Origin: Pirellulales bacterium
Lineage (GTDB): Bacteria > Planctomycetota > Planctomycetia > Pirellulales > UBA1268
Assembly: GCA_044336925.1 (NCBI GenBank)
Contig: JBIIOM010000003.1
Span: 1 to 40,358 of the forward strand
Length of the DNA: 40,358 nucleotides
Direction of reading: 5' to 3'
Made by a program: the position numbers and the translations under genes. Positions 3,028 through 31,880 of the stretch are shown one piece after another (within the stretch, counting starts at the first letter, position 1; every line of letters starts with the position of its first letter). Below the pieces are notes generated by a model. That model was not told the origin of the DNA. It did no database searches and worked only from the letters and a program-made list of their open reading frames with translations.

Positions 3028-3302
3028 CACCGTGGGGCTACACGCTCCGCGAGTTGGATTGGATGGCCGTTGGCCGACAACACGACACTTGGAACCACAC
3101 CAGCAACCTCATGGCCCTGCTCGCGACCATCCACAGCGACCCCAGCAAGGGCAGCAGCTACACGCCGTCCGACTTCCACCCGTTCGTGGAATCGCCGGGG
3201 CTGCCGGAAGCCACGCCAGAGCTGCTTGAGTCGCTCGGATTCAAGCGGGCCGCCAAGCCGGAGGCGGCCGCCCAGCCGGAGGGGGTGAGCGATGGCCGCT
3301 AG
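2847..3302 (+). CDS. Tail assembly chaperone gpT-like extension (-1 frameshift product)
   Basis: -1 frame open from 2805 to 3302; encodes LAGICGVAPWGYTLRELDWMA...DFHPF; no good own start. Confidence 0.65.
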   Translation, partial: PRAPKGAAQEGAGQVPGSAGEGQQPDDADRRGGPRPDRLRANDSSDAYELCFRLAGICGVAPWGYTLRELDWMAVGRQHDTWNHTSNLMALLATIHSDPSKGSSYTPSDFHPFVESPGLPEATPELLESLGFKRAAKPEAAAQPEGVSDGR

Positions 3303-12987: not shown

Positions 12988-13021
12988 ACAACCGTACAAT
13001 AGGGGTATAGGAGCCCGCCCT

Positions 13022-15779: not shown

Positions 15780-16076
15780 GTGACGCTTTACGAATGGCTC
15801 GTCGCTTGGCTCGTGTCGCTGTCGGCCGGCCCGGGGGCCGTCGACGCGGAGGCGCCACGGGCGGCAGCCGCAGTCACCGCCGCTCGAGCGAGCATGATTG
15901 CCGACGGCCCGGCGCCCCCGGCCCCGGCCCCTGCTGAGTGCGTCTGCGGTCGGACGTGCGTCAATGGAACATGGAAGCCCGACGGGCGGATCGAGCAGCG
16001 GTGCACCTGCACCTGTGAGCGATGCAAGCGGAAGCCCGCCCTCCCCTGCCCCGATGGCAAGTGCCCGCCACGGTGA
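15780..16076 (+). CDS. Secreted/membrane Cys-rich protein
   Basis: GTG start; hydrophobic N-terminus, PAPPAPAP linker, CVC..TC...CTCTCERC...CPDGKCP. Confidence 0.6.
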   Translation: MTLYEWLVAWLVSLSAGPGAVDAEAPRAAAAVTAARASMIADGPAPPAPAPAECVCGRTCVNGTWKPDGRIEQRCTCTCERCKRKPALPCPDGKCPPR

Positions 16077-16079
16077 AGC

Positions 16080-16466
16080 ATGGAAGCCCTCGAGCGGCTC
16101 GTCGCCCACGTCTCGGAACAATGCGGCCAGCGTGCCCGCATGGCCGGCCGTGCCCGCGTGCACGAGCTCACGCGTCTGGTTGTCCGGCACTGGCCGCACA
16201 ATCACGTCGAGGCCATTGAGCGGCACGGCGGCAAGAACAACGCCGCGGCCGCTCACGCGATGATCCTCGTGCGTGCCCAGGTTCGCGAGCAATACGAGGC
16301 CCGGCACGATGTTGGCCCGCTCTGGGATCTCTTTCTCGGCGGCCTCGTGGCGTCGATCTGCAGCTCCGTGCTCGATCTCTGGCTGGCCGATCGGGCGTGG
16401 CGGGTGATGCTCCGCGGGTTGTCCCGCCAAATCGCCGCGGAGCGGTCAGCGGATCGCACCGAGTAG
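16080..16466 (+). CDS. Hypothetical protein with hydrophobic C-terminal helix
   Basis: 128 aa; last gene of the rightward cluster. Confidence 0.6.
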   Translation: MEALERLVAHVSEQCGQRARMAGRARVHELTRLVVRHWPHNHVEAIERHGGKNNAAAAHAMILVRAQVREQYEARHDVGPLWDLFLGGLVASICSSVLDLWLADRAWRVMLRGLSRQIAAERSADRTE

Positions 16467-16610
16467 GGCGGCGATCGCGTCATGCACGGCACGGGCGAGC
16501 GGCGTCTCGCTACCGAGCTCCTGGCCGAGTCGCACGAGCACGAGGGCACGAATCCATTCGTCCCACGGTATCCGCGAGCGGCGGCGTGTTATCCGGCGTG
16601 TTGTCCGCAT
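16446..16610 (-). CDS. Small basic hypothetical protein (54 aa)
   Basis: GGAGGAG RBS before ATG 16610; MRTTRRITRRRSRIPWDEWIRALVLVRLG... Confidence 0.55.
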   Translation of the reverse strand: MRTTRRITRRRSRIPWDEWIRALVLVRLGQELGSETPLARAVHDAIAALLGAIR

Positions 16611-17089
16611 AGCTCCTCCATGAGCCTCAAGGGGAAGGCCGCGATCTCGACGGCGGTCGGGTGGGTTGTCCATGCGTAGGCCTGGCCGTCGGGGTGGAGC
16701 GACGGCGGGAGCACCGACTGAGCGGCCCGGCCGCCGATGCGGACCTCGAGGCCGTCGATCTTGGCCACGGCCACGGGCGGCAGGTTGTCCGTCCAGCGGA
16801 AAAGCCGGTGCTCGCCGCGAGCCGATCGCCACGTCGGGGTGGCCACGTCGACCAAGCCGAGCCGCTCGAGCGTCGCCCGGCCGTCGTCGTCGTCGAATTC
16901 CACGTCGACAACGCCGGATGGCGGGCCGAGCAGGAGCCCCACATTCGACCGAGCGGCGAGCCACGCTGCCACGTCGCCCGGGTTGTCCGTCGATCGGGTT
17001 TGCCATGCGGCCCCGAGCGGGCGCTTCTCACGCCGGGCGAGCCGGACAAACCGGCAGCCGGCGGCGGCCAGTGCTGCGATGTCGTTCAT
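16589..17089 (-). CDS. Bifunctional DNA primase/polymerase (Prim-Pol, AEP) domain protein
   Basis: EKRP...W....T......W....NVG......VVDVEFD...T..GEH..F...SVLPPSLHP.G..Y.W signature. Confidence 0.85.
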   Translation of the reverse strand: MNDIAALAAAGCRFVRLARREKRPLGAAWQTRSTDNPGDVAAWLAARSNVGLLLGPPSGVVDVEFDDDDGRATLERLGLVDVATPTWRSARGEHRLFRWTDNLPPVAVAKIDGLEVRIGGRAAQSVLPPSLHPDGQAYAWTTHPTAVEIAAFPLRLMEELCGQHAG

Positions 17090-17349
17090 CGGTCGCCCCT
17101 CCTGTCGTCGAGCATGGTGTAGGTGGTGGGCATGGCGAGGCCCGCGGCGGCGAGAGCGTCGCGGACCTCTCGGCGGATACGCTCGCAGCGGTGGGCGCTC
17201 ACGGGCTCGCCGATGTCGTGGTAGGTGTCGAGAATCAAGAACGCGTCCGGCAATTCCCGGCCGGCGGCGATGGCGTCGACGACCGGCCGCGTGAGCGGGT
17301 CGGCCTCGAGCACCTGGGCGAGATCGGTTTCAAAGTTGGCGGCGTGCAT
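17086..17349 (-). CDS. Hypothetical early protein
   Basis: 87 aa; AGGAG RBS within the CAACCCAGGAGCCCC element. Confidence 0.7.
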   Translation of the reverse strand: MHAANFETDLAQVLEADPLTRPVVDAIAAGRELPDAFLILDTYHDIGEPVSAHRCERIRREVRDALAAAGLAMPTTYTMLDDRRGDR

Positions 17350-17397
17350 GGCGGGGGCTCCTGGGTTGGGGGTGGGTTGTGGGTCGGTGGGTTGTGG

Positions 17398-17631
17398 TTA
17401 GTCGTTGATGCTCAGGAAACGATCGCTGGCCGGGCAGGCCTCGAGCACGATCGCGTCGGGGTCATCGGCCACGGCCGGGGCCGCCCGCATGGTGTCGTAC
17501 AGATCGGACGCGATGGCCTGGTAGCTGCCGGCCCCGAGCACGGCGTCGATGGCTGCGGCGAGCGTCGCCCCGGTGGACACGCGGGCGAGGATCATCCGGC
17601 TAACGGCTGCGTTCTTTTCGATGGTCGTCAT
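17398..17631 (-). CDS. Hypothetical early protein
   Basis: 77 aa from ATG 17631; AGGAG RBS; downstream of promoter 17681-17708. Confidence 0.7.
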   Translation of the reverse strand: MTTIEKNAAVSRMILARVSTGATLAAAIDAVLGAGSYQAIASDLYDTMRAAPAVADDPDAIVLEACPASDRFLSIND

Positions 17632-17680
17632 TTCATTTCTCCTAGTTAGTGGCGGGCCGCTCGTTGCTGCCCGTGTGTGT

Positions 17681-17736
17681 ATATTAGCAATCGGCAATAA
17701 GGAGTCAAGGGCTGAAATCAAAAAAACTTTTTGGGG
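17681..17736 (-). promoter_or_regulatory. Strong leftward early promoter with 13-bp operator and A/T UP element
   Basis: Minus strand TTGACT-16bp(CCTTATTGCCGATTGC)-TAATAT; near duplicate at 20408-20464. Confidence 0.75.
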
Positions 17737-17964
17737 CTACTTCCCGGCCTTCTTGGTGGCGTCGGCTCGAGGCCGGCCACGGCCGATAGGATCACGCTTG
17801 AACGCCGCGGCCGACGACCGGAGGGCGAACCATTGGCCGTCAATCTCAACGCCCGCCACGGCCCCCTTCTTGATCTGCGTGAGCATCCAAAGGCGAGACA
17901 CGCCCGCGAGCTTCGCGGCCGTGCCGATGCGGACGTAGAGGCTAGGGTCGATTTTCGGTGGCAT
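17737..17964 (-). CDS. Small HTH DNA-binding protein (excisionase/HTH_17-like)
   Basis: AAKLAGVSRLWMLTQIKKG...G.QW followed by GRGRPR tail. Confidence 0.75.
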   Translation of the reverse strand: MPPKIDPSLYVRIGTAAKLAGVSRLWMLTQIKKGAVAGVEIDGQWFALRSSAAAFKRDPIGRGRPRADATKKAGK

Positions 17965-18026
17965 GGCTGCATTATTGCCAATTGCTTTCTTCGGTCAAGC
18001 GGCCCGGGTTGTCCGTTGTGGGTTGT

Positions 18027-18386
18027 CTATCCCTGGTAGTCGGCCAGATAAACGAGCTCGTCGGCCAGAGCCGAGCCCGGCAGCCCCTCGAGGGCGTCGA
18101 GCTCGTCATCGGAAAGCGGCTGGCCGGCGGCGGCGTGCACGTCGGCCACGATCGACACGCCCGGCGAGCGGCGGCCGGCACGCTTCCCGCCGGCCTGGCG
18201 TCGCATGATCTCGGCGTGGCAGTAGTGGACCTCGTCCATGTAATAGCCGGCCTTCGGGCCGTCGGGCATGGCGGCGAGGGCGGAGCGGCAATCGGCGATA
18301 ACGAATTCCAATTCCGCCAACGAGCGGCGGCGGCAGATCTGGGGGTAGGCGGCGTGGTCGATTTCTTTCGTGGCATATGCGGGCAT
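18027..18386 (-). CDS. Hypothetical early protein
   Basis: 119 aa; AGGAG RBS; KAGYYMDEVHYC motif. Confidence 0.7.
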   Translation of the reverse strand: MPAYATKEIDHAAYPQICRRRSLAELEFVIADCRSALAAMPDGPKAGYYMDEVHYCHAEIMRRQAGGKRAGRRSPGVSIVADVHAAAGQPLSDDELDALEGLPGSALADELVYLADYQG

Positions 18387-18507
18387 TGGTTGGGGCTCCT
18401 GGGTTGTGCGGCCATCGGCCGCGGGTTGTGTGGGTTGTGGGCGACGTGCCCGGCAGCCCCCTAGCCGGCCGCGGGTTGCCCCGGGGCCGGCGCGGGGGAG
18501 GCCGCGG

Positions 18508-19434
18508 CTACTCGGCGGCGGCGGCGGGCTCGAGCTCCTCGGCGGCCGCTCCGCCGGGCTGCTTGGAGTGAAGGAACGCGGCGGCCCGGCTGGCGGCGGC
18601 GGAAGCGGTGAATATCGCCCGCTTGTCGGCCTTCATGATCTTCAGCCACGACGCCAGATATTCGGCGTGGTCTTCGCGGGGCTGGGGCTCAATGCCAAGA
18701 TCGGCGGCCAAGAACGCGGCCCCCAGTTCGGCAATGAGCTCCTCGGCCGCGTATTTGTTTTCGCCAAATCTCGACGAGAGATCGCGGGCGAGGCGGGAGC
18801 CGTGGCCGGTCCAATGCACGAGCTCGTGGGCAAGCGTCGCCGCGTGGTAGCCCGCATCCTCAAAAGCGGAGGCATCAGGCATCTGGACATAGTCCGCGGA
18901 CGGGTTGTAATAGGCGCGGCCGCCACCCTCGCGAATATCGGCGCCGGTATGGCCGAAAAACTGCATGGCCGCGGCGATCGGTTGCACGTCGCCGGCCGGC
19001 CGCTCTACGGCCGCGGTGAAGTGCTCCGGCAGCCCTTCACACTGTTCGGCATTGAATACCGCATAGCTTTTCAGGAACGGGATTTCACGCTCTTGGGTTG
19101 TCCCGTCGGCCCCCTGCTCCTCTTTCTTGAAGACGCCAGCGTAGACGACGGGCGTGGACTTCTCGCCCTTCTTGACGTGGCCGCCGAGCTCGCGGGCCTG
19201 ATTGAACGTCAGCCAGAACGGGCAGGAATAGCCGCCGGCCTCCGCGGCCATCCAGAGCACGAGAACATTGACGCCGGAGTAGGGTTGCCCGTTGTGGCGG
19301 AGCGGCCGCGACGCGGCCCCGGTTGTCCATGGCTTGTGCCACGGGGCCACGTCGCCAGCTTCAAGCCGGGCAACAATGGCATTGGTCACGTCAGCGTAAA
19401 CGTCGCGGCGGGTTGTGGTGCTGGTCGTCTTCAT
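18508..19434 (-). CDS. ardC: ArdC-family antirestriction protein (ssDNA-binding + zincin domain)
   Basis: DVY..VT..I...LE.G..PW.KPW, YSGVN...LW, W.TF.QA..LGG.V.KGEK, VFN.EQ, HEL.HWTGH..RL.R, YA.EEL.AELG, YL.SW. Confidence 0.92.
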   Translation of the reverse strand: MKTTSTTTRRDVYADVTNAIVARLEAGDVAPWHKPWTTGAASRPLRHNGQPYSGVNVLVLWMAAEAGGYSCPFWLTFNQARELGGHVKKGEKSTPVVYAGVFKKEEQGADGTTQEREIPFLKSYAVFNAEQCEGLPEHFTAAVERPAGDVQPIAAAMQFFGHTGADIREGGGRAYYNPSADYVQMPDASAFEDAGYHAATLAHELVHWTGHGSRLARDLSSRFGENKYAAEELIAELGAAFLAADLGIEPQPREDHAEYLASWLKIMKADKRAIFTASAAASRAAAFLHSKQPGGAAAEELEPAAAAE

Positions 19435-19549
19435 CTTTGAACCTTCTTGGGTTGTGGCGGGTTGTCCGCCGGGTTGTGTGTCGGGCGACGTGCCCGGCCG
19501 CACGGTGCCCGGCCGCCACGAGCGGCGGCCGGTGGCCGTGGGGCCGCGG

Positions 19550-19744
19550 CTACTTGGCGGCCGCCCGCATCGCCTTGACGAGCTCGCGGGCCTCTTGCCG
19601 GTCGTCACACGTCGCGACGTGATGCCGGGCACCGTCGGGCGTGATGCTTTCGATTTCGTACCAGCAGCACGCGCCGCGGCTGCGGGGGTCTGCAATGCGG
19701 ATGATGCGGTAAACGGTCGTCGGGTTGTGGGGCGTGTTATCCAT
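19550..19744 (-). CDS. Hypothetical early protein (64 aa)
   Basis: AGGAGCCCC RBS before ATG 19744; operator-containing promoter upstream. Confidence 0.6.
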   Translation of the reverse strand: MDNTPHNPTTVYRIIRIADPRSRGACCWYEIESITPDGARHHVATCDDRQEARELVKAMRAAAK

Positions 19745-19765
19745 CGTCGGGGCTCCTGTTAGGGG

Positions 19766-19794
19766 TATATCGTCAATCGGCAATAAAGACCTAG
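19766..19794 (-). promoter_or_regulatory. Third early promoter/operator copy
   Basis: Exact TTATTGCCGATTG (19774-19786) followed by ACGATATA; weaker -35. Confidence 0.6.
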
Positions 19795-20387
19795 AACGGG
19801 GCAAATCGCGGCCTTCCCATCGTGGGATGGCGGCGGAAGTTTTCGGCGGCTGACCGCGGGACAACCCACGAGCGGCCAATACGCTGGCCGGGCACGCGGC
19901 CGGCCTTCACCAGTTGGCGGAGCCATTGCTCCGTCACGTCGGCCAGAGCGGCGGCGGCCGGCAGCGGCAAGAGCTCGTCGGCCGTCGGGGCTGCGGGGGC
20001 AATTTCAGCGGCGGCCCGATTGATGGCCGCGGCCATCGTTTCATCGGCCGTCGGCAGCACCGGGGCCGGGGCCGTCACGAGCTCGTAGAGGGCTGCCGCG
20101 GGGTCGTCCTGCCCTAGTTCGGGAATGTCGGTATTCGCGAGCTCGCGGGCCACGTCGTCGAACGCCCGCAGATTGGTCTGGTCGCCGATGGTAACGGCGT
20201 GCCGATTGGCCATCTTGAACGTGCCCCCGTGCCGATGGCCGAGCGCAGCGTAGGCAATGCGGCGGGCCTCAAGCGTGCGAGCGATGCCCATAGTCTCGAG
20301 CTCACGCATTTCGGAGTAGATCGCGCGCACAACGGACCAATCGAGGCCCATTTCCGCGGCGGTCTGCTTGTGCTTTTGAATGTCCAT
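19791..20387 (-). CDS. Protein with C-terminal HTH_17-like DNA-binding domain
   Basis: AAALADVTEQWLRQLVKAGRVPG.RIG.SW...GRPR, paralogous to 17737-17964; GGAG RBS at ATG 20387. Confidence 0.8.
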   Translation of the reverse strand: MDIQKHKQTAAEMGLDWSVVRAIYSEMRELETMGIARTLEARRIAYAALGHRHGGTFKMANRHAVTIGDQTNLRAFDDVARELANTDIPELGQDDPAAALYELVTAPAPVLPTADETMAAAINRAAAEIAPAAPTADELLPLPAAAALADVTEQWLRQLVKAGRVPGQRIGRSWVVPRSAAENFRRHPTMGRPRFAPF

Positions 20388-20407
20388 GTCTCGTCTCCCG
20401 ATGCCCA

Positions 20408-20464
20408 ATATTATCAATCGGCAATAAGTGTGCAAGGGCTGGAATCTAAAAAAAGTTTTTCGGG
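20408..20464 (-). promoter_or_regulatory. First leftward early promoter with 13-bp operator and UP element
   Basis: Minus strand TTGCAC-16bp(ACTTATTGCCGATTGA)-TAATAT; A/T tracts upstream. Confidence 0.75.
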
Positions 20465-20588
20465 CAAATTTCTAGCCAGAATTCCGGCGGGCGTGAGTTT
20501 CGCCCGGAATATTCCCAACTGGACACTTTGGCGAAATCGAAAAACGCCATCGGCCATCCCCCCCGATAGCGGGGGCGTGCTCGCCCGT

Positions 20589-20840
20589 CGTGGCCGATGG
20601 CCACGGGATCGACCGCCGGGCCGGGCAGGATGGCCGACGGACGCGGCCACGAGCGGCGAGGGGCTCGAGCATCGGGCGACGATGGCCGGGCGACGACCTG
20701 CCCGGCCCGGCCGACGATGGCCGGCCGTCGGGGCTCTAAGTTGTGGGTTGTCGGGCCGGCCGACGGGCGCGAGTATTTCGATTCCGAAATACTCGCTTCC
20801 CCCGCTGCGTGGGGGGTGGCACACCCCGCCGCGTGGGGGT
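20589..20840. repeat. Cluster of inverted and direct repeats in the largest non-coding region
   Basis: 15-bp IR 20615-20629/20697-20711; 12-bp perfect hairpin 20769-20796; CGTGGCC-GAT-GGCCACG 20589-20605; CCCCGCyGCGTGGGGG twice. Confidence 0.8.
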
Positions 20841-20872
20841 GACGCAAAACGCTACACCCCACCCGGCAGGGG

Positions 20873-20920
20873 GGGTCCTTCCGCCTCCTCCGCCGCCCTG
20901 CCCCCGGCTGCGAACTCCAC
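20873..20920 (+). other. Putative cos/packaging site (lambda cosQ-like GGGTCCTTCC)
   Basis: GGGTCCT is the lambda cosQ heptamer; phage has gpA-type terminase and lambda-type portal; lies in the large intergenic gap. Confidence 0.45.
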
Positions 20921-21020
20921 TTTAGCGTCGAGTCCGTGCGCGCCCTGCCAAATTCTTCGACTGCTAGACCGAAAAACTTTTCACGCGTAGGATTCGACCC
21001 ACCCAAACGAGGAGCGTGAA

Positions 21021-21452
21021 ATGATGCGAATTCTCGCGGTAATCGCCCTGCTTCTGCCGGCGCTCTCGGCCGCCGACGAGCCGAAGCGGGCCGGAATGGT
21101 CGAAGCGAAAACGAAGGCCGTCGAGCCGAAGATCGACAAGGCCGTGGCGAGGATGCAGGCGGCAATCGCCCTGGTCGAAAACGACGAATGGCTCGCGGAA
21201 ATCGCCCACGATGCCGCGACGACCGGCCGCTACAAGACCCCGAAGCTGCCGGACGGCGTGGTCGTGACCGTCATCATCCACGAATCGTCTGAAAAAAACC
21301 CTTTCGGCCGTATTCCGACGCCGAAAGCACGCGGAAACGGTGCCGAAATGATCCAAGTGGCCTACAAGGTGGCCGAGGGCAAGCGCGGCGCAAAGCGGGC
21401 GATCATGTGGGTCGACAAGCAAAAAATCGACTACAAGCGACTCAGGCCGTAG
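21021..21452 (+). CDS. Secreted/periplasmic protein (moron-like)
   Basis: Signal peptide MMRILAVIALLLPALSAA; GAGGAG RBS; converges on integrase. Confidence 0.7.
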   Translation: MMRILAVIALLLPALSAADEPKRAGMVEAKTKAVEPKIDKAVARMQAAIALVENDEWLAEIAHDAATTGRYKTPKLPDGVVVTVIIHESSEKNPFGRIPTPKARGNGAEMIQVAYKVAEGKRGAKRAIMWVDKQKIDYKRLRP

Positions 21453-22344
21453 GTCGGCCCATCGCCGGCGGCGGATCGACGCCGAGCGGCCGCGGAAATA
21501 CGCGATTTCGGGCGACAATCGTCGGGTCAACGTAACTGTCGTAGGCGATGCGGCTGCCCGGCGCGTGCCCCAACTGGACGCTCGCGGCCCCCTGCTGCTG
21601 CAGTTCGCAGTCGGTCGAGCTCGAGCGGCGGAGCCACTTCCACGTCCCGGGCCGAATCCCGGCCTTGAGCACCAGGCGGTCGAGCTGGTCGAGGAACGTC
21701 TCCCGGCTCGACGGCCACGGGACAACTAGCGGGCGTTGACATACGTCAAGCGATGCCCGAAGGGCCGCCATAGTGGCCTCGGACAGCCGGAACGTGACGA
21801 CGCGGCCCGTTTTGCTCTGCGTCCATGAGGCGAACCCGTCCGGCCGGATCGCCGAGACGGGAATCGCGATCAAATCGCCCCACCGGACACCGGAATCCCA
21901 GGCGACGCGGACGGCCAGATCCCACCAGACGCTCCGGCGGAGCCCGCACTTGTGCCACCGCGGCAGCGTGCGGCAGGCGGCCAGCAACTTCTCGACCTCC
22001 TCGAGCGTCCAGCACTGGACGACCGGCCTCGCACACCGGACGGAGCGAATCCTCCGCCCTGGCGGCTCGCAGAGCCCCTCATCGGCGGCCGCCCGCCAGA
22101 GGGAAAGCACTTGGGCCTTCTTTGAGCGGACTGTGTACGGGCGTACAGTTGCCGCGTAATCGCGGAGCCACGCCGAGACGCTCTGCGTATCAAGTTCTTG
22201 GAGTGGGACAGGCCCACCCGCCCACCGCTCGAAAAGCTCCGCCGCCATGCGGTACTGGCGAAGCGTCTCAGGTCGGCAGTCGTGGAGCAGGCCGTAGTCG
22301 CGAGCGTAGTCGCCCAACGTCCGCGGGCCGGAGCGGCAATACAT
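21442..22344 (-). CDS. int: Tyrosine recombinase / integrase
   Basis: G.R.GD (R), SKTG (K), WLRR, LGH, SY (Tyr); adjacent to the tRNA-derived attP. Confidence 0.85.
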   Translation of the reverse strand: MYCRSGPRTLGDYARDYGLLHDCRPETLRQYRMAAELFERWAGGPVPLQELDTQSVSAWLRDYAATVRPYTVRSKKAQVLSLWRAAADEGLCEPPGRRIRSVRCARPVVQCWTLEEVEKLLAACRTLPRWHKCGLRRSVWWDLAVRVAWDSGVRWGDLIAIPVSAIRPDGFASWTQSKTGRVVTFRLSEATMAALRASLDVCQRPLVVPWPSSRETFLDQLDRLVLKAGIRPGTWKWLRRSSSTDCELQQQGAASVQLGHAPGSRIAYDSYVDPTIVARNRVFPRPLGVDPPPAMGRPTA

Positions 22345-22552
22345 GGTTGCTAGTCAAGGCTATGCCCTCGCCTGGTCCGCCAGACCCGTCGAGGACTCCC
22401 CCACGGCGAGCATCCTGCCGCCGGGTGATACCGCCATCTTCCAGATGGTTTCCTGCCGGTCAAAACCCCCGCAAAACCCGAATGTCCGCTACTCGGCACC
22501 GTTTGTCAGAGCAGTTGAATTTCAGTTCTGTAGATCGTTTTTTCGGTTCCAG

Positions 22553-22606
22553 TAGAGCATCGGTCTACGGAACCGAAGGTTGCTGGTTCGAGCCCAGCGG
22601 GGTGTA
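22553..22606 (+). other. attP core: 3' two-thirds of tRNA-Arg(ACG)
   Basis: TAGAGCA-TCGGT-CT-ACG-GA-ACCGA-AGGTT-GCTGG-TTCGAGC-CCAGC-GGGGTGTA; 5' acceptor strand and D-arm 5' half absent. Confidence 0.85.
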
Positions 22607-22675
22607 TTGCCGTCAGTGAACCCTACGGGTCGCGTGACGGCTAGGCAAATTGCGTAGAGTTCACGGAGGAGTCGA

Positions 22676-22909
22676 ATGGTCAGCAGGCACCCGGGCGGCA
22701 GGCCGCGGCAGATCAAGGTGTGCGAGCTTGGCAAGCGCATCGAGCAGATGGCGGCCACCCGAGGATGGAACCGCTCCGACCTTGCTAGCCGTGCTGGCAT
22801 CACGCCCGTCTCGATGTGGGCACTGTGCGTCGGCAAGTCCAAGCCAAAGTTTGAAACGATCTGCAAGATCGCAGACGCTCTCGGCGTCCCAGTAACAAAG
22901 CTGCGGTAG
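22676..22909 (+). CDS. XRE/Cro-C1-type HTH transcriptional regulator
   Basis: LG.RI......G....DLA.RAGI....M......K.KP...TI.KIA.ALGV; GGAGGAG RBS. Confidence 0.88.
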   Translation: MVSRHPGGRPRQIKVCELGKRIEQMAATRGWNRSDLASRAGITPVSMWALCVGKSKPKFETICKIADALGVPVTKLR

Positions 22910-22933
22910 ACGCTTTTTCAGAAAAATTATCTC

Positions 22934-22978
22934 CACCTAAAAACTCCTGTTGACTGAGTTATTAGGTGTGCCTATGAT
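22934..22978 (+). promoter_or_regulatory. Rightward sigma70 promoter with operator-like inverted repeat around -35
   Basis: TTGACT(22950)-17bp-TATGAT(22973); CACCTAAAAACTC / GAGTTATTAGGTG 12/13 IR. Confidence 0.8.
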
Positions 22979-23089
22979 CCCCGCCATGCGATGCCGATTG
23001 CCGGCATCACGACCCCATGGCGAGGGACCGCCGGATGGCAAGCAGAGAAGACAAGCCAGCGGCCTCCCTCATTTCGCAAGGAGGCCGAA

Positions 23090-24168: not shown

Positions 24169-25082
24169 CAATTTCGATTCGCAAAGCAAAGCGGTCGGCC
24201 ACGAAACTGCGACTGCTCACGACCGGCCCGAGTGGCGCCGGCAAGACCTACGGCAGTTTGCTCGTGGCCAAGGGGCTCGGCTGCAAGAACATCGTCGTGA
24301 TCGACACGGAGCAAGGCTCTAGCGATCTCTACGACACGCTGGCTGACTTCAATGTCATCGACCTCGCCCCGCCGTTCACGCCGGAGCGATACATCGAGGC
24401 GATACAGACGGCGGAGCAGGCCGGGGCCGACTGCATCATCATCGACAGTATTTCGCACGAGTGGAACGGCAAGGGTGGCTGCCTCGAGCTGGTGGACGAG
24501 ATCGCCAAGGCGAAATTCAGGGGCAACACTTGGTCGGCCTACTCGGAAATCACCCCGCGGCACCGGGCCTTCATCGACGCAATGCTGCGGTCGAGTGCCC
24601 ACATCATCGCGACCGGGCGGGCGAAAACTGAGACGGCGCAAGTCGACGACGGGGGCAGGAAGAAGGTCGTCAAGTTGGGCATGAAGCTCGAAAGCCGCGA
24701 CGGTGCGGAATACGAATTCACGCTCTGCCTCGACATCGTCCACGACGGCCACTTCGCGGTGGCAAGCAAGGACAGGACGGGGCTTTTCGGCGGCGACCCG
24801 AAGCCGATCACGGAGGAAACCGGCCGACGGCTCGCGGCGTGGCTGGCCGGCGGCGAGTCTCGCCAGCCGGAGCCGGAGGCCAAGGGCGACGACGGTCTTT
24901 TCAAGAAGGCGGCCGACGCGATCGACGCGGCCGACTCCGTCAAGAAGATCGCCCCGATCTCGAAGCGGATCGACGCCCTGGTGGCCGACGGCACGCTCTC
25001 GAGCGAGCAGTGGTCGGCCCTCACCGACAAGGTCGACGCCAAGCTCCGCGAGCTGACGGAAAGCGAGGCTTCGAATGTCTGA
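24165..25082 (+). CDS. AAA-family ATPase, Sak4-like phage recombination protein
   Basis: Walker A GPSGAGKT, IDTE.GS, IIIDSISHEW, EYEF....D, KDRT motifs. Confidence 0.85.
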   Translation: MTISIRKAKRSATKLRLLTTGPSGAGKTYGSLLVAKGLGCKNIVVIDTEQGSSDLYDTLADFNVIDLAPPFTPERYIEAIQTAEQAGADCIIIDSISHEWNGKGGCLELVDEIAKAKFRGNTWSAYSEITPRHRAFIDAMLRSSAHIIATGRAKTETAQVDDGGRKKVVKLGMKLESRDGAEYEFTLCLDIVHDGHFAVASKDRTGLFGGDPKPITEETGRRLAAWLAGGESRQPEPEAKGDDGLFKKAADAIDAADSVKKIAPISKRIDALVADGTLSSEQWSALTDKVDAKLRELTESEASNV

Positions 25083-25905
25083 GCACTACGAAACATTCGT
25101 TTCCGTCGCCATCGACTACCTCTCGCAGCGGAGCGTCTCGCGACACTACTCCGAGAACGTCACGCGGATCGCGACGCGGGCCGGGGCGATCTCAACGGAG
25201 CGGGTCAACGCGTTCCTCAAGTGGCGTCTCGAGCAGGTTTCCACCGTCACGGCCAAGGCCGAGCGGGTGGTGCTGCTCTCGCTCTGGCGGGCCGCCTACG
25301 AGGCCGGCAAGGTGAACGACCCGCCGCGAGGCGTGTTGCGGATCAAGGCAAAGCGGCCGCCCACGCGGGCGTGGACCGTCGAGGAAATGCGGAGGGCCAT
25401 CGCCAAGACCGACGAGGTCCGCGGGCGAACCCTGCGGAACGGAGCCGATCTCGGTGCGTTTCTCAAGTGCTGGCTGCTGCTTGGCTACGAGAGCGGTGCC
25501 CGGCGGGGCGACATCTTCTCGTTCACAAGCCAGCACCTCGACGGCGACGTGCTCCGCTGGACGATGGCGAAGACGGGCGACCCAATGACCAAGCATCTGT
25601 CGCCGGCCTGCCTGCGGGCTTGCTGGGAAATGCTCGAGCAATCGCCCGATGGCAGCATTTTGGCCTGGGTCGTTCAGCGGCGTCGTGCGGCGATTCTGCT
25701 CAAGGAGCATCTAGACCGCTGCGGCATGGTGGGCTCGAGCAAGTTCCTGCGGCGATCTGGGGCGACCCATATCGAGATTGAGTCGCCGGGCCTCGCCACT
25801 CGCCATCTGGGCCACAGGACGGCGGCGCTCGCCAGCCAGGCCTATCTGGATTGGGGCCAGATTCGCAAGTGCAGCCCGCAAACCCCCGTGCTGGTGGCGT
25901 CATGA
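25075..25905 (+). CDS. Second tyrosine recombinase-family protein
   Basis: SGARRGDI (R), AKTG (K), FLRRSGAT, HLGH, AY (Tyr); paralog of 21442-22344. Confidence 0.82.
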   Translation: MSEHYETFVSVAIDYLSQRSVSRHYSENVTRIATRAGAISTERVNAFLKWRLEQVSTVTAKAERVVLLSLWRAAYEAGKVNDPPRGVLRIKAKRPPTRAWTVEEMRRAIAKTDEVRGRTLRNGADLGAFLKCWLLLGYESGARRGDIFSFTSQHLDGDVLRWTMAKTGDPMTKHLSPACLRACWEMLEQSPDGSILAWVVQRRRAAILLKEHLDRCGMVGSSKFLRRSGATHIEIESPGLATRHLGHRTAALASQAYLDWGQIRKCSPQTPVLVAS

Positions 25906-28531: not shown

Positions 28532-28900
28532 ATGGGACGTAGTTCGAGAGAAAAGGGAAAACGCGGCGAGCGTGAGTGCCGCGACGAGCTCCGCGAGGTG
28601 CTGGGCCTGCCCGACGGGGCGGCCCGGCGTGGCTGCCAGTTCCAAGGCGGGCCGGACTCGCCCGACGTGGTGCTCGACGGGGTGCCGATTCACGTCGAGG
28701 CCAAGCGGACTGAGCGGCTCTCCCTCTGGCCGGCGGTCGACCAAGCAGGCCGCGATGCAAAGGCCGGCTGCGTCCCGATCGTGTGGCATAAGTGCAATCG
28801 GCGTCGTTCGGTCGTGATCGTCGAGACGGCGAGGCTTTACGACCTCGCGGTGGCCGTCGTTGAGGCCGCAAAAAACGGTACTCCTGCGGAGCCGACCTAG
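28532..28900 (+). CDS. Holliday junction resolvase-like PD-(D/E)xK nuclease
   Basis: SREKGKRGERE...PDV......VEAKR. Confidence 0.8.
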   Translation: MGRSSREKGKRGERECRDELREVLGLPDGAARRGCQFQGGPDSPDVVLDGVPIHVEAKRTERLSLWPAVDQAGRDAKAGCVPIVWHKCNRRRSVVIVETARLYDLAVAVVEAAKNGTPAEPT

Positions 28901-31008
28901 TGCCCGTCAAGAGCAAGGAGGCAATCGAAAACCGCCGCAAGGCGACGCTCGAGCGTGGCCGGGCGACGACGCGGCTGGGGGCCGACATCGGCGAGATCGC
29001 CAAGCCGGTCAACTTAGAGCGACGCGAAGCCTGCCGGCTCGACCTCGCCCGCTTTCTCGTCGAATACTTCCCGCAGTCGACCGGCCTTTCGCCATTCTCC
29101 GAAGACCACAAGCGAGTCATCGGCCGCATCCAAGACTGCATCCTCCGCGGCGGGCGATTCATCAACGCGGTCTACCGCGGCTTCGCCAAGAGCACGATCT
29201 CCGAAAACTCTCTGCTCTGGGCCATGCTTTACGGCCACCGGCGATTCGGGGCGATCTTCGCGGCCGAGGCCGACCTCGCCACCAAGGCCATCACGAGCAT
29301 CAAGCTCGAGCTCGCCGAGAACGACCTCCTGTTCGAAGACTTCCCCGAAGTGTGCATCCCCGTGCGGGCCTTGGAGGGCAAGCCGCAGCGGTGCAACAGC
29401 CAGACGTTCAACGGGAAGCACACGCATATCCGCTGGCAGGCCGATAGCGTTGTCCTGCCGTCGATCCCGGGCGGCGTGGCCAGCGGCTCGATCATCATGA
29501 GCCGCGGCCTCACCGGCTCGATCCTTGGCCTGCGTCACAAGGCGCCGGACGGCACCCAACTCCGGCCGGACTTCGTGATCGTCGACGACCCGCAGACGCG
29601 AGAGTCGGCGGCGAGCCCGATGCAGTGCCAGAAGCGTCTCGAAATACTCTCCAAGAGCGTGATGAAACTGGCCGGCCACACCAAGAGCATCGCCTGCGTG
29701 GTCAACGCGACCGTGATCGCGACCGACGACATGGTTGACCAACTCCTCGACCAGCGGAAATACCCGGCGTGGCAGGGCGAGCGGATTCCGATGGTGCGGA
29801 AGTGGGCGGACCGGCACGAGGAGCTCTGGCTCGGAAAGTATCGCGAGATCCGCAACACGTTCGACAAGGATCGCGTCGGCGACCAGGCGAGAGCCCACCG
29901 CGAGGCGAATGAGTTTTACGCGACCAATCGCGAGGCGATGGATGCCGGCTGCCAAGTCTCGTGGGCCGCCTGTTTCGATCCCGACAACGAGCGCTCGGCG
30001 ATCCATCACGCGTACAACGCTCTGATTGACGACGGCGAAGCGGTCTTCGCGAGCGAGTTCCAGCAGGTGCCGCTCGCCAACGAGGCCCAGGCGTCGGGGC
30101 TCACGCAGGACGACGTTCGCGGGCGGGCGATCGCGGTGCCGCGGTGGATCGTCCCGGCGGGCCTTGAGACTTTGACCGCGTTCGTCGACGTGCAGGAGAA
30201 ACTTTTGTATTGGGCCGTGGTCGCTTGGGGGCAGCAACTCCGCGGGCACTTGGTCGCCTACGGCGTCTACCCAGAGCAAAACCGCACCTACTACACGCTC
30301 CGCGACGCCCGCAAGACGCTGGTTAAGGCCGCGGGCGGCGTGAGTCTCGAGGCGGCGATCCACGCCGGGCTCGAGAAGGTGGCCAGCGAAATACTCGACC
30401 GCGAGTTTTCGCGGGAGTCTGACGATGCCGTGCTCCGCGTCTCTCAGGTTTTTGTTGACGCGAATTGGGCGCAGACGGCCGGCGTGGTCCGCGACTTTGC
30501 CCGGCGGTCGCAGTGGGGGCCGCGGATCATCCCCACCCACGGCCGATTCGTCGGGGCCAGCGGCTCGACGCTCTCCGACAAGAAGGCGGACAAGGGCGAG
30601 CGGGTGGGAGCCAACTGGCGGACGAGCACGATCAACCGCCAGCGGCACGTCTTGTACGACACGAATTCGTGGAAAACCTTTTTCGCGGCCCGCTGCAAGC
30701 TGCCCATCGGCGATCTGCAGGCCTTCACGGTCCACGAGGGCCGGCACGAAATGCTGTGCGAGCAGTTGGCGGCGGAGTATCCGACACGGGTCGAAGCCAA
30801 GGGCCGCGTCGTGGACGAGTGGCGATTGATCCCCGGCCGCGACAACCATTGGCTCGACTGCTGCGTGGGCTCGGCCGTGGCGGCGTCTTTCACGGGGATC
30901 TCGGCCGTGGGCGTTGACGCCCGGCCGGGGGTGGTGGCCAGCCGGACGGTGTCCCGCGAGGAGGCCGCGAAACGTCGGGCGGAAATCATGGCCAAAATGC
31001 GGCGCTAA
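28900..31008 (+). CDS. terL: Terminase large subunit (lambda gpA-type)
   Basis: YRGFAKST Walker A, RPDFVIVDDPQ Walker B, SEFQQ.P, FVDVQ nuclease Asp, DNHWLDC. Confidence 0.92.
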   Translation: MPVKSKEAIENRRKATLERGRATTRLGADIGEIAKPVNLERREACRLDLARFLVEYFPQSTGLSPFSEDHKRVIGRIQDCILRGGRFINAVYRGFAKSTISENSLLWAMLYGHRRFGAIFAAEADLATKAITSIKLELAENDLLFEDFPEVCIPVRALEGKPQRCNSQTFNGKHTHIRWQADSVVLPSIPGGVASGSIIMSRGLTGSILGLRHKAPDGTQLRPDFVIVDDPQTRESAASPMQCQKRLEILSKSVMKLAGHTKSIACVVNATVIATDDMVDQLLDQRKYPAWQGERIPMVRKWADRHEELWLGKYREIRNTFDKDRVGDQARAHREANEFYATNREAMDAGCQVSWAACFDPDNERSAIHHAYNALIDDGEAVFASEFQQVPLANEAQASGLTQDDVRGRAIAVPRWIVPAGLETLTAFVDVQEKLLYWAVVAWGQQLRGHLVAYGVYPEQNRTYYTLRDARKTLVKAAGGVSLEAAIHAGLEKVASEILDREFSRESDDAVLRVSQVFVDANWAQTAGVVRDFARRSQWGPRIIPTHGRFVGASGSTLSDKKADKGERVGANWRTSTINRQRHVLYDTNSWKTFFAARCKLPIGDLQAFTVHEGRHEMLCEQLAAEYPTRVEAKGRVVDEWRLIPGRDNHWLDCCVGSAVAASFTGISAVGVDARPGVVASRTVSREEAAKRRAEIMAKMRR

Positions 31009-31670: not shown

Positions 31671-31880
31671 TTGGCCGACAACGACGACGTGATCGACGCG
31701 CTGGCGGCGAATCTCGCCCAGCCCCGTCGCGCCCGCACCGACGCCGGTGAAGTCGAGCAGCACGAGCTCGACCGCCAGGTGGAGGCCGCCAAATTTGTCA
31801 TGCAGTCGCGGGCGGCTTCCGTGTCGCCCTTCAAGAGCCTGCGTATGGCCCGCATTGAGTACCCGGGGGCCACCGGCTAA
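31671..31880 (+). CDS. Head completion/adaptor protein (gpW-position)
   Basis: 69 aa, TTG start with GGAG; P.R...D.G.VEQH.L..Q; directly before lambda-type portal. Confidence 0.65.
   Translation: MADNDDVIDALAANLAQPRRARTDAGEVEQHELDRQVEAAKFVMQSRAASVSPFKSLRMARIEYPGATG

What the first reader, a model, noticed from the sequence alone, without database searches (positions are those of the whole stretch)
16416..20751. Polar array of 18 GGGTTGT/ACAACCC heptamers confined to the first-ejected early region
Seen: 18 exact copies on one strand within 4.3 kb and only one inverse copy; I noticed only a handful in the other 36 kb. They cluster upstream of RBSs but also sit inside ArdC, Prim-Pol and other CDSs, sometimes using ACA codons that are uncommon in this GC-rich genome, which argues for selection on the nucleotide motif. 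Inference: the array lies directly 5' of the cosQ-like site, at the end a lambda-like phage ejects first, alongside ArdC and Prim-Pol. Candidate roles are (i) host Chi-like sites, correctly oriented for a RecBCD/AddAB-type enzyme entering from the right end; (ii) recognition sites for the encoded AEP primase; (iii) stoperator- or antitermination-type sites for a phage protein. It may be an undescribed DNA-entry protection or early-expression system.
Basis: partly seen in the sequence, partly recalled or inferred. Interest (0 to 1): 0.85.

Follow-up and report, generated by a model that had tools for sequence, protein, structure and literature searches.

The report
Start-associated leader repeats in a phage operon
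The repeated heptamer is real, but read on the strand of the genes it is ACAACCC, a word in the untranslated leaders just ahead of ribosome-binding sites in one operon of a temperate phage, so it most likely serves translation and gene shuffling, not DNA-end protection.

Summary
GGGTTGT occurs 18 times on the + strand in 16416-20751, against 0.3-0.4 expected, with one inverse copy.

The genes there (ArdC, Prim-Pol, seven small ORFs) lie on the minus strand, so the word in mRNA sense is ACAACCC. Ten of the 18 copies sit in tandem 14-55 nt upstream of start codons of internal cistrons. Two more lie in codons 6-9.

Twelve related IMG/VR contigs carry the same polar array: 152 sense to 1 antisense with the window. 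One subclade uses GAACCC and a fixed 'CCAGGAGCCCGAACCC-ATG' unit.

Across 84 start regions, G falls to 0.05-0.13 between -25 and -16, and Thr fills 22% of codons 2-9. The phage's + strand genes and the host bin show none of this.

All four gene-content differences from the closest relative break at these leaders.

The word is not enriched in 21 genomes of the host lineage, so Chi is unsupported. The 'first-ejected end' claim has no support.

The closest known things are the start-associated sequences of Cluster K mycobacteriophages and PeSL cassettes of T4-type phages. The mechanism is inferred, not shown.

The parts
16416..20751 (-). Polar array: 18 copies of ACAACCC in the sense of the minus-strand genes (GGGTTGT on +).
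19449..19477 (-). Three tandem heptamers, 14, 24 and 36 nt 5' of the ArdC start codon (19434). The last one abuts the SD AAGAAGG.
18401..18438 (-). Three heptamers, 14, 36 and 45 nt 5' of the start of the 119-aa gene (18386). The last one abuts AGGAGCCCC. A 6-bp hairpin lies between copies 2 and 3.
18006..18026 (-). Two heptamers directly after the stop of the 119-aa gene, 41 and 55 nt 5' of the start at 17964 and upstream of that gene's own promoter.
17374..17395 (-). Two heptamers in a 48-nt spacer with only 4 G outside the SD core, 24 and 39 nt 5' of the start at 17349. The spacer is predicted unstructured (-0.9 kcal/mol).
19435..19549 (-). Intercistronic cassette before ArdC: stop codon, long GC hairpin, small hairpin with loop ACGUC (about 19482-19496), heptamer tract, SD.
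   Evidence: z -3.5.
18387..18507 (-). Paralogous intercistronic cassette after ArdC with the same layout. The small ACGUC hairpin is at about 18439-18451.
   Evidence: z -2.55.
19749..19757 (-). AGGAGCCCC, an SD-containing unit. The other two module copies are at 18392-18400 and 17354-17362.
   Evidence: 5 in the window against 0.44 expected; 3 of the 5 in module start regions.
19410..19416 (-). Heptamer in codons 7-9 of ArdC (T-T-R), using the rare ACA codon. ACCACAACC is kept in 6 of 6 ArdC orthologs examined.
19722..19728 (-). Heptamer in codons 6-8 of the 64-aa gene.
18508..19434 (-). ArdC-like anti-restriction protein (ArdcN plus zincin peptidase). It holds two deep heptamer copies (19095, 18902).
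16589..17089 (-). Small Prim-Pol (AEP) protein. It holds copies at 16980 (deep) and 16663 (52 nt 5' of the overlapping 54-aa gene's start at 16610).
16446..20387 (-). The minus-strand module of nine genes: 19791-20387 HTH/Xis-like, 19550-19744, ArdC, 18027-18386, 17737-17964, 17398-17631, 17086-17349, Prim-Pol, 16446-16610.
17688..20427 (-). Span holding sigma-70-like promoters of the module that share the operator TTATTGCCGATTG (20415-20427, 19774-19786, 17688-17700; inverted at 17972-17984). The leaders directly behind three of them carry no heptamer.

Best explanation
ACAACCC is the mRNA-sense word of a start-associated leader system, specific to one module of a clade of lake-water temperate phages.

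Where it sits. The minus-strand operon (HTH, ArdC, Prim-Pol and small ORFs) has internal cistrons separated by stereotyped cassettes. Each cassette runs: stop codon, strong GC hairpin, a small hairpin with an invariant ACGUC loop, a tract built almost only of A and C in which ACAACCC is repeated 2-4 times, a Shine-Dalgarno unit AGGAGCCC(C), an A/C spacer, then ATG. Thr-rich (ACC/ACA) first codons often follow.

How it probably works (inferred). An A/C-only tract cannot pair with itself. I infer that it keeps about -30 to +20 of each internal start site single-stranded in a 66-69% GC transcript, acting as a landing pad or enhancer for 30S subunits. Each small gene would then be translated on its own behind the hairpin that closes the upstream cistron.

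Second effect (shown by comparison). The repeated leaders serve as short homologies at which whole genes are gained, lost or swapped between related phages.

Shown: position, polarity, composition, conservation, and breakpoints at the leaders. Inferred: the effect on translation, and whether a protein reads the word.
For: - Strand and genes. All nine genes of 16446-20387 are on the minus strand.
- Position. By my reading, 10 of the 18 copies lie 14-55 nt 5' of a start codon in intercistronic spacers. Two lie in codons 6-9. One lies 52 nt 5' of an overlapping gene's start.
- Polarity in relatives. 152 sense to 1 antisense copies in 126.8 kb of the window's 16000-21000 plus 12 IMG/VR loci. The whole 43.8-kb relative has 25 sense and 2 antisense. 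ArdC loci at 53% identity or less have no array.
- Stereotyped start regions. Nearly every module gene of L003 and L004 ends its leader in CCAGGAGCCCGAACCC-ATG. Of 84 non-identical start regions from 9 phages, 63 have AACCC within -50..-1 and 56 have the SD followed by CC.
- Composition. G is 0.05 at -20..-16, 0.13 at -25..-21, 0.09 at -5..-1 and 0.15-0.21 at +5..+19. T is 0.09 or less from -40 to -1. Twenty-six + strand genes of the same phage have G at 0.18-0.30 at -30..-16 and -5..-1. Thr is 147 of 672 residues in codons 2-9, against 392 of 6720 deeper in the proteins.
- Not a host habit. 677 crudely called host start regions show no G depletion, and there are no tandem heptamer pairs outside this contig.
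- Word-level excess over leader composition. 8 against 0.36 in the window's leaders, 21 against 1.42 in three phages, and CGAACCC 25 against 1.0 in the other subclade.
- Accessibility. The predicted energy to open -20..+6 is 4.3, 7.1 and 5.1 kcal/mol for the three heptamer-bearing starts, against a mean of 11.9 (sd 3.6) for 26 + strand genes. The 48-nt spacer 17350-17397 is predicted unstructured.
- Spacing of neighbouring copies is irregular, 7-15 nt, with no helical phasing.
- Breakpoints. 4 of 4 gene-content differences between the window and L001 break at the SD or leader, two of them with 19-23 nt overlaps.
- Contigs of other lake-water runs join 18512 to 19448 and 18410 to 18006, that is, across whole genes between leaders. 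This is weak: see the warning.
Against: - No experiment and no usable transcript data. The one RNA-library run is kept as contigs and may hold DNA.
- The folding support is weak. Replacing the heptamers with random 7-mers from the same module raised the opening energy only modestly; 6%, 20% and 27% of 150 replacements did as well as the native sequence. Two module starts without heptamers open nearly as easily (5.1 and 7.8 kcal/mol).
- Pure 'lack of structure' does not explain why one exact word recurs, nor why the sister subclade uses a word that contains G (GAACCC).
- My crude automatic gene calls place only 37 of 114 copies within 45 nt 5' of a called start. 81 of 114 are intergenic, 6 lie in the first 45 nt of a coding sequence and 27 lie deeper.
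- In the window, 3 copies lie deep in coding sequence and 2 lie outside any leader (20745, 16416).
- The style is confined to one module. The rightward early genes of the same phage use ordinary AAGGAGG leaders, which hints at regulation rather than a general need.
- The clade members are kin, so the counts across them are not independent.
Confidence: 0.5

Rival explanations
1. The heptamers (and GAACCC in the sister subclade), with the ACGUC hairpin, are RNA sites for a sequence-specific trans-acting factor. The factor could be encoded by the phage or the host. It would switch translation or transcript elongation of the whole module on or off, in the manner of T4 RegA on early start regions or lambda N on nut sites.
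For: - One exact word is in excess over leader composition.
- The words differ by subclade (ACAACCC against GAACCC).
- The small hairpin has an invariant loop, and its outer stem differs in L176 (12 and 10 bp) while still pairing.
- The style is limited to one module.
- The 54-aa protein at 16446-16610 has an Arg-rich N-terminus followed by Trp. Its family was found only in the ACAACCC-rich members: window, L001, L194, L164 and L002. It was not found in L003, L004, L059, L151, L152 or L176, nor in the short fragments L189 and L191.
Against: - No RNA-binding protein was identified. Pfam and PHROGs give nothing for the small ORFs. The Atlas gave no leads. Models of two conserved families had no significant fold match.
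- The Arg-rich tail is not kept in L164 or L002, and the gene is last in the operon.
- The correlation with word type is a single phylogenetic split.
- Only 10 of 137 non-duplicate heptamers sit in a hairpin loop with a stem of 4 bp or more.
Confidence: 0.2
2. The word has no function of its own. The leaders are paralogous copies of one cassette, spread and homogenised by recombination and slippage, and the heptamer rides along.
For: - The two long spacers of the window are paralogous.
- Perfect tandem runs (four heptamers head to tail in L002) look like slippage.
- Gene indels sit exactly at the leaders.
Against: - Strict polarity, and persistence across ArdC divergence down to 66%, with turnover of copy number and position.
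- A/C bias extends into coding sequence, with rare ACA codons kept in 6 of 6 ArdC orthologs.
- Independent words in two subclades occupy the same positions.
Confidence: 0.08
3. The repeats act on DNA as oriented binding sites for a phage protein (for example one of the two HTH_17/Xis-like proteins) that silences or organises the module, like the stoperators of Cluster A mycobacteriophages.
For: - The sites are intergenic, in one orientation relative to transcription, and in tandem direct repeats.
- Two HTH proteins are encoded in the module.
Against: - The word is only 7 bp, and spacing is irregular at 7-15 bp.
- The promoters of the module share a different operator.
- The graded A/C-only composition centred on start codons, the fixed SD-to-ATG unit and the Thr-rich N-termini are RNA or translation features.
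Confidence: 0.07
4. The C-rich, G-poor tracts are Rho-loading (rut-like) sites, or otherwise govern transcription polarity between cistrons.
For: - C is 0.43-0.51 and G 0.05-0.19 from -30 to -16.
- A Rho gene is present in the host bin.
- The tracts lie where ribosomes have just terminated.
Against: - The tracts are short, about 20-45 nt.
- They abut the SD and run into the first codons, where an initiating ribosome would cover them.
- No terminator-like ends could be tested.
Confidence: 0.05
5. The repeats are host Chi-like sites that protect the entering DNA end from a RecBCD- or AddAB-type nuclease.
For: Strict polarity on one strand over 4.3 kb, next to an anti-restriction gene.
Against: - The word is not enriched in the host bin or in 20 genomes of its genus and order. 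Counts are about equal to or below the reversed control, and 0.04 per kb outside this contig.
- RecC was found in 2 of 13 genomes of the genus and not in the bin, which is 80% complete.
- Copies cluster at start codons and track the direction of the genes.
- There is no evidence that the region is near a packaged end.
- AddAB was not searched. The bin may not be the true host.
Confidence: 0.02
6. The repeats are template recognition sites for the encoded Prim-Pol, or hairpin-plus-GU-tail terminators that act on antisense (+ strand) transcripts from the late operon.
For: - Prim-Pol is conserved in every full module.
- One + strand terminator-like hairpin with a GGTTGTGTGT tail lies at 19455-19471.
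Against: - Position relative to start codons, extension into codons, and A/C-only composition.
- Terminator-like sites are not above the shuffle expectation in the region (6 against 5.0).
- No assay was possible.
Confidence: 0.04

Closest known systems
[quoted passage not shown] 2011, PMC3203893, passages read; 2025 survey PMC12699233, passages read)
   Same: - Short asymmetric repeats, 11-19 per genome.
- In one orientation.
- Restricted to the non-structural genes.
- Placed at translation starts of genes of unrelated families.
- Contain an AGGAG core followed by CCC.
- Absent from the host genome.
- About half have an upstream inverted repeat.
- Function is still unknown in 2025.
   Different: - The consensus GGGATAGGAGCCC is not enriched here (8 hits at 3 mismatches or fewer, against 14 expected).
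- The heptamer itself lies upstream of the SD, in tandem and in variable number, not 3-7 nt from the start codon.
- The leaders are A/C-only.
- The upstream hairpins pair as RNA, with a conserved loop and a stem that differs in L176. Pope et al. found little support for RNA pairing of ESAS.
- The host lineage is different: the nearest named ArdC relatives are in Planctomycetales and Pirellula MAGs.
PeSL cassettes (promoter-early stem-loops) of T4-type phages (Arbiol et al. 2010, PMC2839356, abstract read; PMC4122927, search listing only)
   Same: Small repeated regulatory cassettes with a stem-loop, between small non-essential early genes. Insertions, deletions and replacements between close relatives occur at the cassettes.
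   Different: PeSLs are a sigma-70 promoter plus a terminator. Here the heptamer-bearing spacers show no promoter match, and the repeated part is the translation leader. Mini-circles were not tested.
Stoperators of Cluster A mycobacteriophages (mentioned in PMC3203893; details recalled)
   Same: Asymmetric intergenic repeats with a fixed orientation relative to transcription.
   Different: Stoperators are 13 bp, resemble the operator of the early promoter, and are spread over both arms. Here the word is 7 bp, is unlike the module's operator, and is confined to one module.
Lambda and P22 nut sites (boxA plus boxB hairpin, read by an Arg-rich N peptide) and T4 RegA operators (recalled, no call)
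   Same: - A small hairpin with a conserved pentaloop next to a single-stranded conserved word in early transcripts.
- A small Arg-rich protein is encoded in the operon of some members.
- RegA acts on many early start regions.
   Different: - There are several sites per operon, placed between cistrons rather than once near the promoter.
- No boxA-like word.
- The Arg-rich protein is not conserved and is the last gene.
G-poor CA-rich translational enhancers (TMV omega leader, CA repeats in E. coli; recalled, no call)
   Same: A/C-rich, G-less leader tracts next to the start site that favour initiation.
   Different: Those are single artificial or viral leaders. Here it is a repeated, module-wide, conserved word in a 65-69% GC phage.
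Chi sites
   Same: A short, strictly oriented word.
   Different: Not enriched in the host lineage, and tied to gene starts.

Membership tests
Cluster K SAS/ESAS | Many copies (11-19) of a short asymmetric repeat in one orientation | tested here: met
   18 + 2 sense against 4 antisense in the window. 152 to 1 in the clade.
Cluster K SAS/ESAS | Restricted to non-structural genes | tested here: met
   All clusters lie in the ArdC/Prim-Pol module. The structural and lysis genes have ordinary leaders.
Cluster K SAS/ESAS | Repeat lies 3-7 nt from the start codon and contains the SD core | tested here: inconclusive
   True of the AGGAGCCC(C) / AGGAGCCCGAACCC unit. The heptamer itself lies 14-55 nt upstream.
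Cluster K SAS/ESAS | Consensus GGGATAGGAGCCC | tested here: not met
   8 hits at 3 mismatches or fewer, against 14.2 expected, none in the module. Only AGGAGCCC is shared.
Cluster K SAS/ESAS | Absent from the host genome | tested here: met
   0.04 per kb in the bin outside this contig, with no tandem pairs. The bin may not be the host.
PeSL cassettes | Sigma-70 early promoter joined to a terminator stem-loop | tested here: not met
   The promoter scan finds promoters only in spacers without heptamers (17998-17971, 17708-17681). Hairpins are present, but there is no U tail.
PeSL cassettes | Indels and replacements between close relatives occur at the cassettes | tested here: met
   4 of 4 differences between the window and L001.
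Chi | Over-represented in the host chromosome | tested here: not met
   Counts are about equal to or below the reversed control in 21 genomes.
Chi | Skew co-oriented with replication | not testable with these tools
   The MAGs are fragmented (329 contigs).
Chi | Host has a RecBCD- or AddAB-type enzyme | tested here: inconclusive
   RecC domain in 2 of 13 genomes of the genus, none in the 80%-complete bin. AddAB was not searched.
Stoperators (Cluster A) | About 13-bp site related to the repressor's operator at the early promoter | tested here: not met
   The operator shared by the module's promoters is TTATTGCCGATTG, unrelated to the heptamer.
Lambda-type nut site | boxB-like hairpin with a conserved loop | tested here: inconclusive
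   Hairpin GGC-ACGUC-GCC: 12 non-duplicate module instances, all in sense orientation. The outer stem differs but still pairs in L176. Nothing shows that a protein binds it.
Lambda-type nut site | One site per early operon, promoter-proximal, plus an N-like Arg-rich protein | tested here: not met
   Two or three cassettes per module, between cistrons. The Arg-rich tail is seen only in the window and L001.
Primase recognition sites | Priming starts at the word on the template strand | not testable with these tools
   Needs an enzyme assay.

The most novel reading that the evidence does not exclude
The heptamer arrays (GAACCC arrays in the sister subclade), with the invariant-loop ACGUC hairpin, are the cis sites of a dedicated post-transcriptional regulon. 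A small phage-encoded RNA-binding factor would read them to gate translation or elongation of the whole anti-restriction and replication module. The candidate is the Arg-rich 54-aa protein at 16446-16610 in the ACAACCC subclade, with a different protein in the other subclade. This would be an N/nut- or RegA-like system of a new sequence class, in phages of a barely studied host lineage. Its cassettes would also double as the recombination joints that shuffle early genes.
Probability: 0.2. Interest if true: 0.7.

Novelty: new variant of a known kind. Interest (0 to 1): 0.48.

Why it matters
Start-associated repeats were first described in Cluster K mycobacteriophages in 2011, and their function was still called unverified in 2025 (PMC12699233, passages read).

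Here an analogous but unrelated system turns up in a clade of uncultured lake-water phages. It has a clearer anatomy: hairpin, A/C-only repeat tract, fixed SD unit and Thr-rich first codons. This suggests that module-wide leader grammars are a recurrent phage strategy. It also gives a second, compositionally extreme case in which to test how they work.

The exact coincidence of gene gains and losses with the leaders shows how small early genes, including an anti-restriction gene, can be exchanged as ready-to-translate cassettes.

For annotation, the word marks true start codons and the coding strand in these genomes.

Tried and rejected
- Isolate phages. blastn of 16400-20800 found only ArdC at 64-66% identity in Caulobacter and Brevundimonas phages, with no related module.
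It was not informative.
- Rfam had no family in 16000-23000 except a sub-threshold tRNA-like hit. ARAGORN found no tRNA.
- Hairpin-loop idea. I asked whether the heptamer is usually presented in a loop, like boxB. Only 10 of 137 non-duplicate copies have a stem of 4 bp or more around an ACAAC loop. Rejected as a general feature.
- In-silico replacement of the heptamers gave a small, non-significant rise in opening energy. I keep it as weak evidence only.
- Candidate trans-acting factors. The Atlas gave no usable hit for the 119-aa and 87-aa proteins. AlphaFold models were made of the 119-aa family (pLDDT 77.5) and the 64-aa family (pLDDT 86.1). Foldseek on PDB gave no match at E of 0.001 or better. 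The best rows for the 64-aa model were dsRNA-binding domains at E 0.2-0.4. VIA-align wide gave a best Z of 7.0, which is within the stated noise. No fold assignment is made.
- Public runs. 23 DNA runs of lake and freshwater metagenomes hold part of the stretch, and one metatranscriptome library holds 7% of the words. All four runs laid are contigs. RNA-library contigs of a 90-97% relative cover parts of six places in the module. The tool states that this does not show transcription, so I draw no conclusion on expression or on transcript ends. The uncovered parts mean nothing.
- Physical ends. The window's ends map to about 42.2 kb and to 393/43726 of the 43.8-kb relative, so the contig break is an assembly break. 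I could neither find nor exclude a cos site. The 'DTR' of the other complete relative says nothing about packaged ends.
- My automatic gene caller is crude. It misses genes and misplaces starts. I used it only for rough tallies and picked the module starts for by eye.
- Rows left out: L152, L189, L191, L194, exact duplicates, and all genes outside the module.
- Papers. The searches for the word itself (932 papers, primers and the like) and for Planctomycetes translation leaders gave nothing usable. I found no paper that describes this repeat, but these two searches and one search are the only basis for saying so. Supplements of the SAS papers were not opened.

Full report
**1. Observation**

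GGGTTGT occurs 24 times in the window. Eighteen copies are on the + strand between 16416 and 20751, with one inverse copy at 19861. Only 2 + and 3 inverse copies lie elsewhere.

Whole-window shuffles give 3.3 copies, with a maximum of 9. Markov models of order 0-2, trained on the 4.3-kb region itself, expect 0.34-0.43. Higher orders absorb the word, because they learn it from the same few kilobases. It is the most over-represented 7-mer of the region.

**2. Context**

The window is a whole contig (C93) of a 2.79-Mb, 329-contig bin. It is a temperate siphovirus-like genome:

- large terminase at 28900-31008, portal at 31880-33349, protease and major-head fusion at 33037-35244;
- tail genes that run over the contig end to a tape-measure gene at 3292-5418;
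- an exonuclease, then lysis-region genes up to about 16.4 kb;
- a tyrosine integrase at 21442-22344 (minus strand);
- rightward early and replication genes at 22.6-28.9 kb.

The contig's two ends map to about 42.2 kb and to 393/43726 of a 43.8-kb relative, so the break is an assembly break in the tail-fibre region. Nothing places the array at a packaged end, and I found no cos site. By gene order it lies between the lysis genes and the integrase.

**3. The genes under the array are on the minus strand**

The nine genes are:

- 19791-20387, HTH_17/Xis-like;
- 19550-19744;
- ArdC, 18508-19434 (ArdcN plus zincin peptidase, PHROG anti-restriction, E 7e-98);
- 18027-18386;
- 17737-17964;
- 17398-17631;
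- 17086-17349;
- Prim-Pol, 16589-17089 (E 2e-24);
- 16446-16610.

In mRNA sense the word is therefore ACAACCC. I read together to place the 18 copies:

- 10 lie in intercistronic spacers, 14-55 nt 5' of a start codon: three before ArdC, three before 18386, two between 18027 and 17964, two before 17349;
- 2 lie in codons 6-9 (19722, 19410);
- 1 lies inside Prim-Pol but 52 nt 5' of the overlapping 54-aa gene's start;
- 3 lie deep in coding sequence (19095, 18902, 16980);
- 2 lie elsewhere: 20745 in a non-coding stretch dense with inverted repeats, and 16416 just 3' of the last gene.

The three leaders that directly follow the module's own promoters carry no heptamer.

**4. Relatives**

No isolate phage has the module.

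ArdC-based searches of IMG/VR found contigs with ArdC at 98, 83, 66 and 67% identity. Pattern scans added more. In the window's 5 kb plus 12 such loci there are 152 sense and 1 antisense ACAACCC in 126.8 kb. In the whole 43.8-kb relative, 25 of 27 copies are in ArdC sense, and 24 of these lie in the 12.9-kb ArdC locus L001.

ArdC loci at 53% identity or less, including one in a Planctomycetales MAG, have no array.

In one subclade (L003, L004, L059, L151, L152, L176) the dominant word is GAACCC. Nearly every module gene there ends its leader in CCAGGAGCCCGAACCC-ATG. The array is neither a local composition effect nor a single duplication, and it is present and oriented in homologous regions.

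**5. A start-site property on RNA**

I took 84 non-identical start regions of module genes from 9 phages. The starts were picked. Duplicates, four loci and all non-module genes were left out.

- G is 0.13 at -25..-21, 0.05 at -20..-16, 0.09 at -5..-1 and 0.15-0.21 at +5..+19.
- T is 0.09 or less from -40 to -1.
- A plus C reaches 0.8-0.9.
- Thr makes up 147 of 672 residues in codons 2-9, against 392 of 6720 deeper in the proteins.

Twenty-six + strand genes of the same phage show none of this, and their leaders are ordinary AAGGAGG types. Nor do 677 crudely called start regions of the host bin.

AACCC occurs within -50..-1 of 63 of the 84 starts, and the SD is followed by CC in 56 of 84. The exact words exceed what the leaders' own composition gives: 8 against 0.36 in the window, 21 against 1.42 in three phages, and CGAACCC 25 against 1.0 in the other subclade.

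ACA is a rare Thr codon (3% in + strand genes), yet ACCACAACC is kept in codons 7-9 or nearby of ArdC in 6 of 6 orthologs examined. The two deep ArdC copies simply follow the local amino acids.

Neighbouring copies are 7-15 nt apart, with no helical period.

An A/C-only tract cannot pair with itself. Predicted opening energies of -20..+6 are 4.3, 7.1 and 5.1 kcal/mol for the three heptamer-bearing starts, against 11.9 ± 3.6 for the + strand genes. The 17350-17397 spacer is predicted unstructured.

This support is modest. Swapping the heptamers for random module 7-mers raised the energy only a little; 6, 20 and 27% of the swaps did as well as the native sequence.

**6. The cassette**

The two long spacers of the window (19435-19549 and 18387-18507) are paralogous. 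They share a layout with spacers of the relatives: stop codon, a long GC hairpin (z -3.5 and -2.55), a small hairpin with core GGC-ACGUC-GCC, the word tract, sometimes a second small hairpin, then the SD.

The small hairpin occurs 12 times (non-duplicate) in module spacers of 6 phages, always in sense. In L176 its outer stem is different in sequence but still pairs (12 and 10 bp), while the loop is unchanged. No Rfam family matches.

**7. Recombination joints**

Between the window and its 98% relative, all four gene-content differences inside the module break at the SD or leader. There are three whole-gene insertions and one replacement. Two of the breakpoints have 19-23 nt of duplicated leader.

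Contigs from other lake-water runs show joints that skip ArdC (18512 to 19448) and the 119-aa gene (18410 to 18006). One RNA-library contig leaves the window right after the last heptamer, into a different SD and start. The tool warns that such joints, at under 95% likeness or with short sides, are unreliable, so I count them as weak.

**8. Rivals**

- Chi. The word is as rare as its reversed control in the bin, in 12 genomes of its genus and in 8 of its order. RecC is found in only 2 of 13 genomes of the genus. AddAB was not searched, and the bin may not be the host. I consider Chi very unlikely.
- DNA-binding sites of the stoperator kind. The module's promoters share another operator, TTATTGCCGATTG (6 hits at 2 mismatches or fewer, against 0.39 expected). 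The word is short and irregularly spaced.
- Rho loading. This is compatible with the C-rich, G-poor tracts, and Rho is present. But the tracts are short and sit under the initiating ribosome.
- A specific RNA-binding reader. This remains a serious alternative. It would explain the exact words, the subclade-specific words, the invariant hairpin loop and the restriction to one module. I found no such protein. The Arg-rich 54-aa protein is limited to the ACAACCC-rich subclade, and its Arg-rich tail is seen only in the window and L001.
- Primase recognition. Not testable here.

**9. Comparison with what is known**

The closest described things are these.

- The start-associated sequences of Cluster K mycobacteriophages. 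They share the same genomic logic and a shared AGGAGCCC core. The consensus differs, the placement of the repeated word differs, and their function is still unknown (PMC3203893 and PMC12699233, passages read).
- The PeSL cassettes of T4-type phages. They play the same role as indel joints but have a different content (PMC2839356, abstract read).

I file the finding as a new variant of a known kind.

What is known about lambda N/nut, P22 boxB, T4 RegA, CA-rich enhancers and Chi density is recalled from memory, not taken from a call.

**10. Verdict**

The array is real and conserved. It is an RNA-sense, start-associated leader repeat of one phage module, not a DNA-entry device.

| Item | Value |
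|---|---|
| Confidence that it is a start-associated, RNA-level element | about 0.8 |
| Confidence in the specific landing-pad-plus-recombination-joint account | 0.5 |
| Interest | 0.48 |

Noticed in passing
window 17688-17700, 19774-19786, 20415-20427 (minus strand), 17972-17984 (plus strand): A 13-nt operator-like word, TTATTGCCGATTG, sits in the spacer of four sigma-70-like promoters that drive the minus-strand module. There are 6 hits at 2 mismatches or fewer, against 0.39 expected. It is probably the repressor or Cro-type control of the module by one of the two HTH_17 proteins.
   Followed up: partly
window 17964-17998: The promoter TTGACC-16-AATAAT ends 6 nt before the ATG of the 75-aa HTH-like gene (17737-17964). 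This predicts a leaderless mRNA.
   Followed up: no
window 22545-22598: A sub-threshold tRNA-like match (26 bits, E 0.044) lies just upstream of the integrase gene. It may be an attP core derived from a tRNA gene. ARAGORN finds no tRNA.
   Followed up: no
window 20450-21020: About 570 nt of non-coding DNA is packed with inverted repeats (21 pairs), including the perfect palindrome GCGAGTATTTCG/CGAAATACTCGC. One isolated heptamer (20745) lies between two arms. Related words (GAGTATTTCGAT) recur in L002 and L004. Its role (origin, arm sites, ncRNA) is unknown.
   Followed up: partly
window 16446-16610: A 54-aa protein overlaps the end of Prim-Pol. It has an Arg-rich N-terminus followed by Trp. 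Its family was found only in the ACAACCC-rich subclade (window, L001, L194, L164, L002). The GAACCC subclade has an unrelated 83-aa protein at that place.
   Followed up: partly
window 16446-20387 and loci L001-L004, L059, L151, L164, L176: Many module proteins begin with runs of Thr (MTTT..., MSTTTTTT..., MKTTSTTT...). The nucleotide bias of the start region has shaped the protein N-termini.
   Followed up: yes
L001 5364-5687, 7043-7343, 8498-8722 against window 19748, 18392-18410, 17356-17378: Three whole small genes are present in the 98% relative and absent from the window. Each is inserted exactly at a leader or SD repeat.
   Followed up: yes
window 25075-25905: There is a second integrase-like gene (PHROG integrase, E 2e-13) inside the rightward early region, besides the integrase at 21442-22344.
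   Followed up: no
window 33037-35244: The head maturation protease and the major head protein appear to be fused in one long ORF (PHROG 'major head and protease protein', E 2e-51).
   Followed up: no
window 13004-13016: GGTATAGGAGCCC is one mismatch from the Cluster K SAS consensus. It lies just upstream of the ORF that starts at 13022. It is a single copy and probably a coincidence.
   Followed up: no
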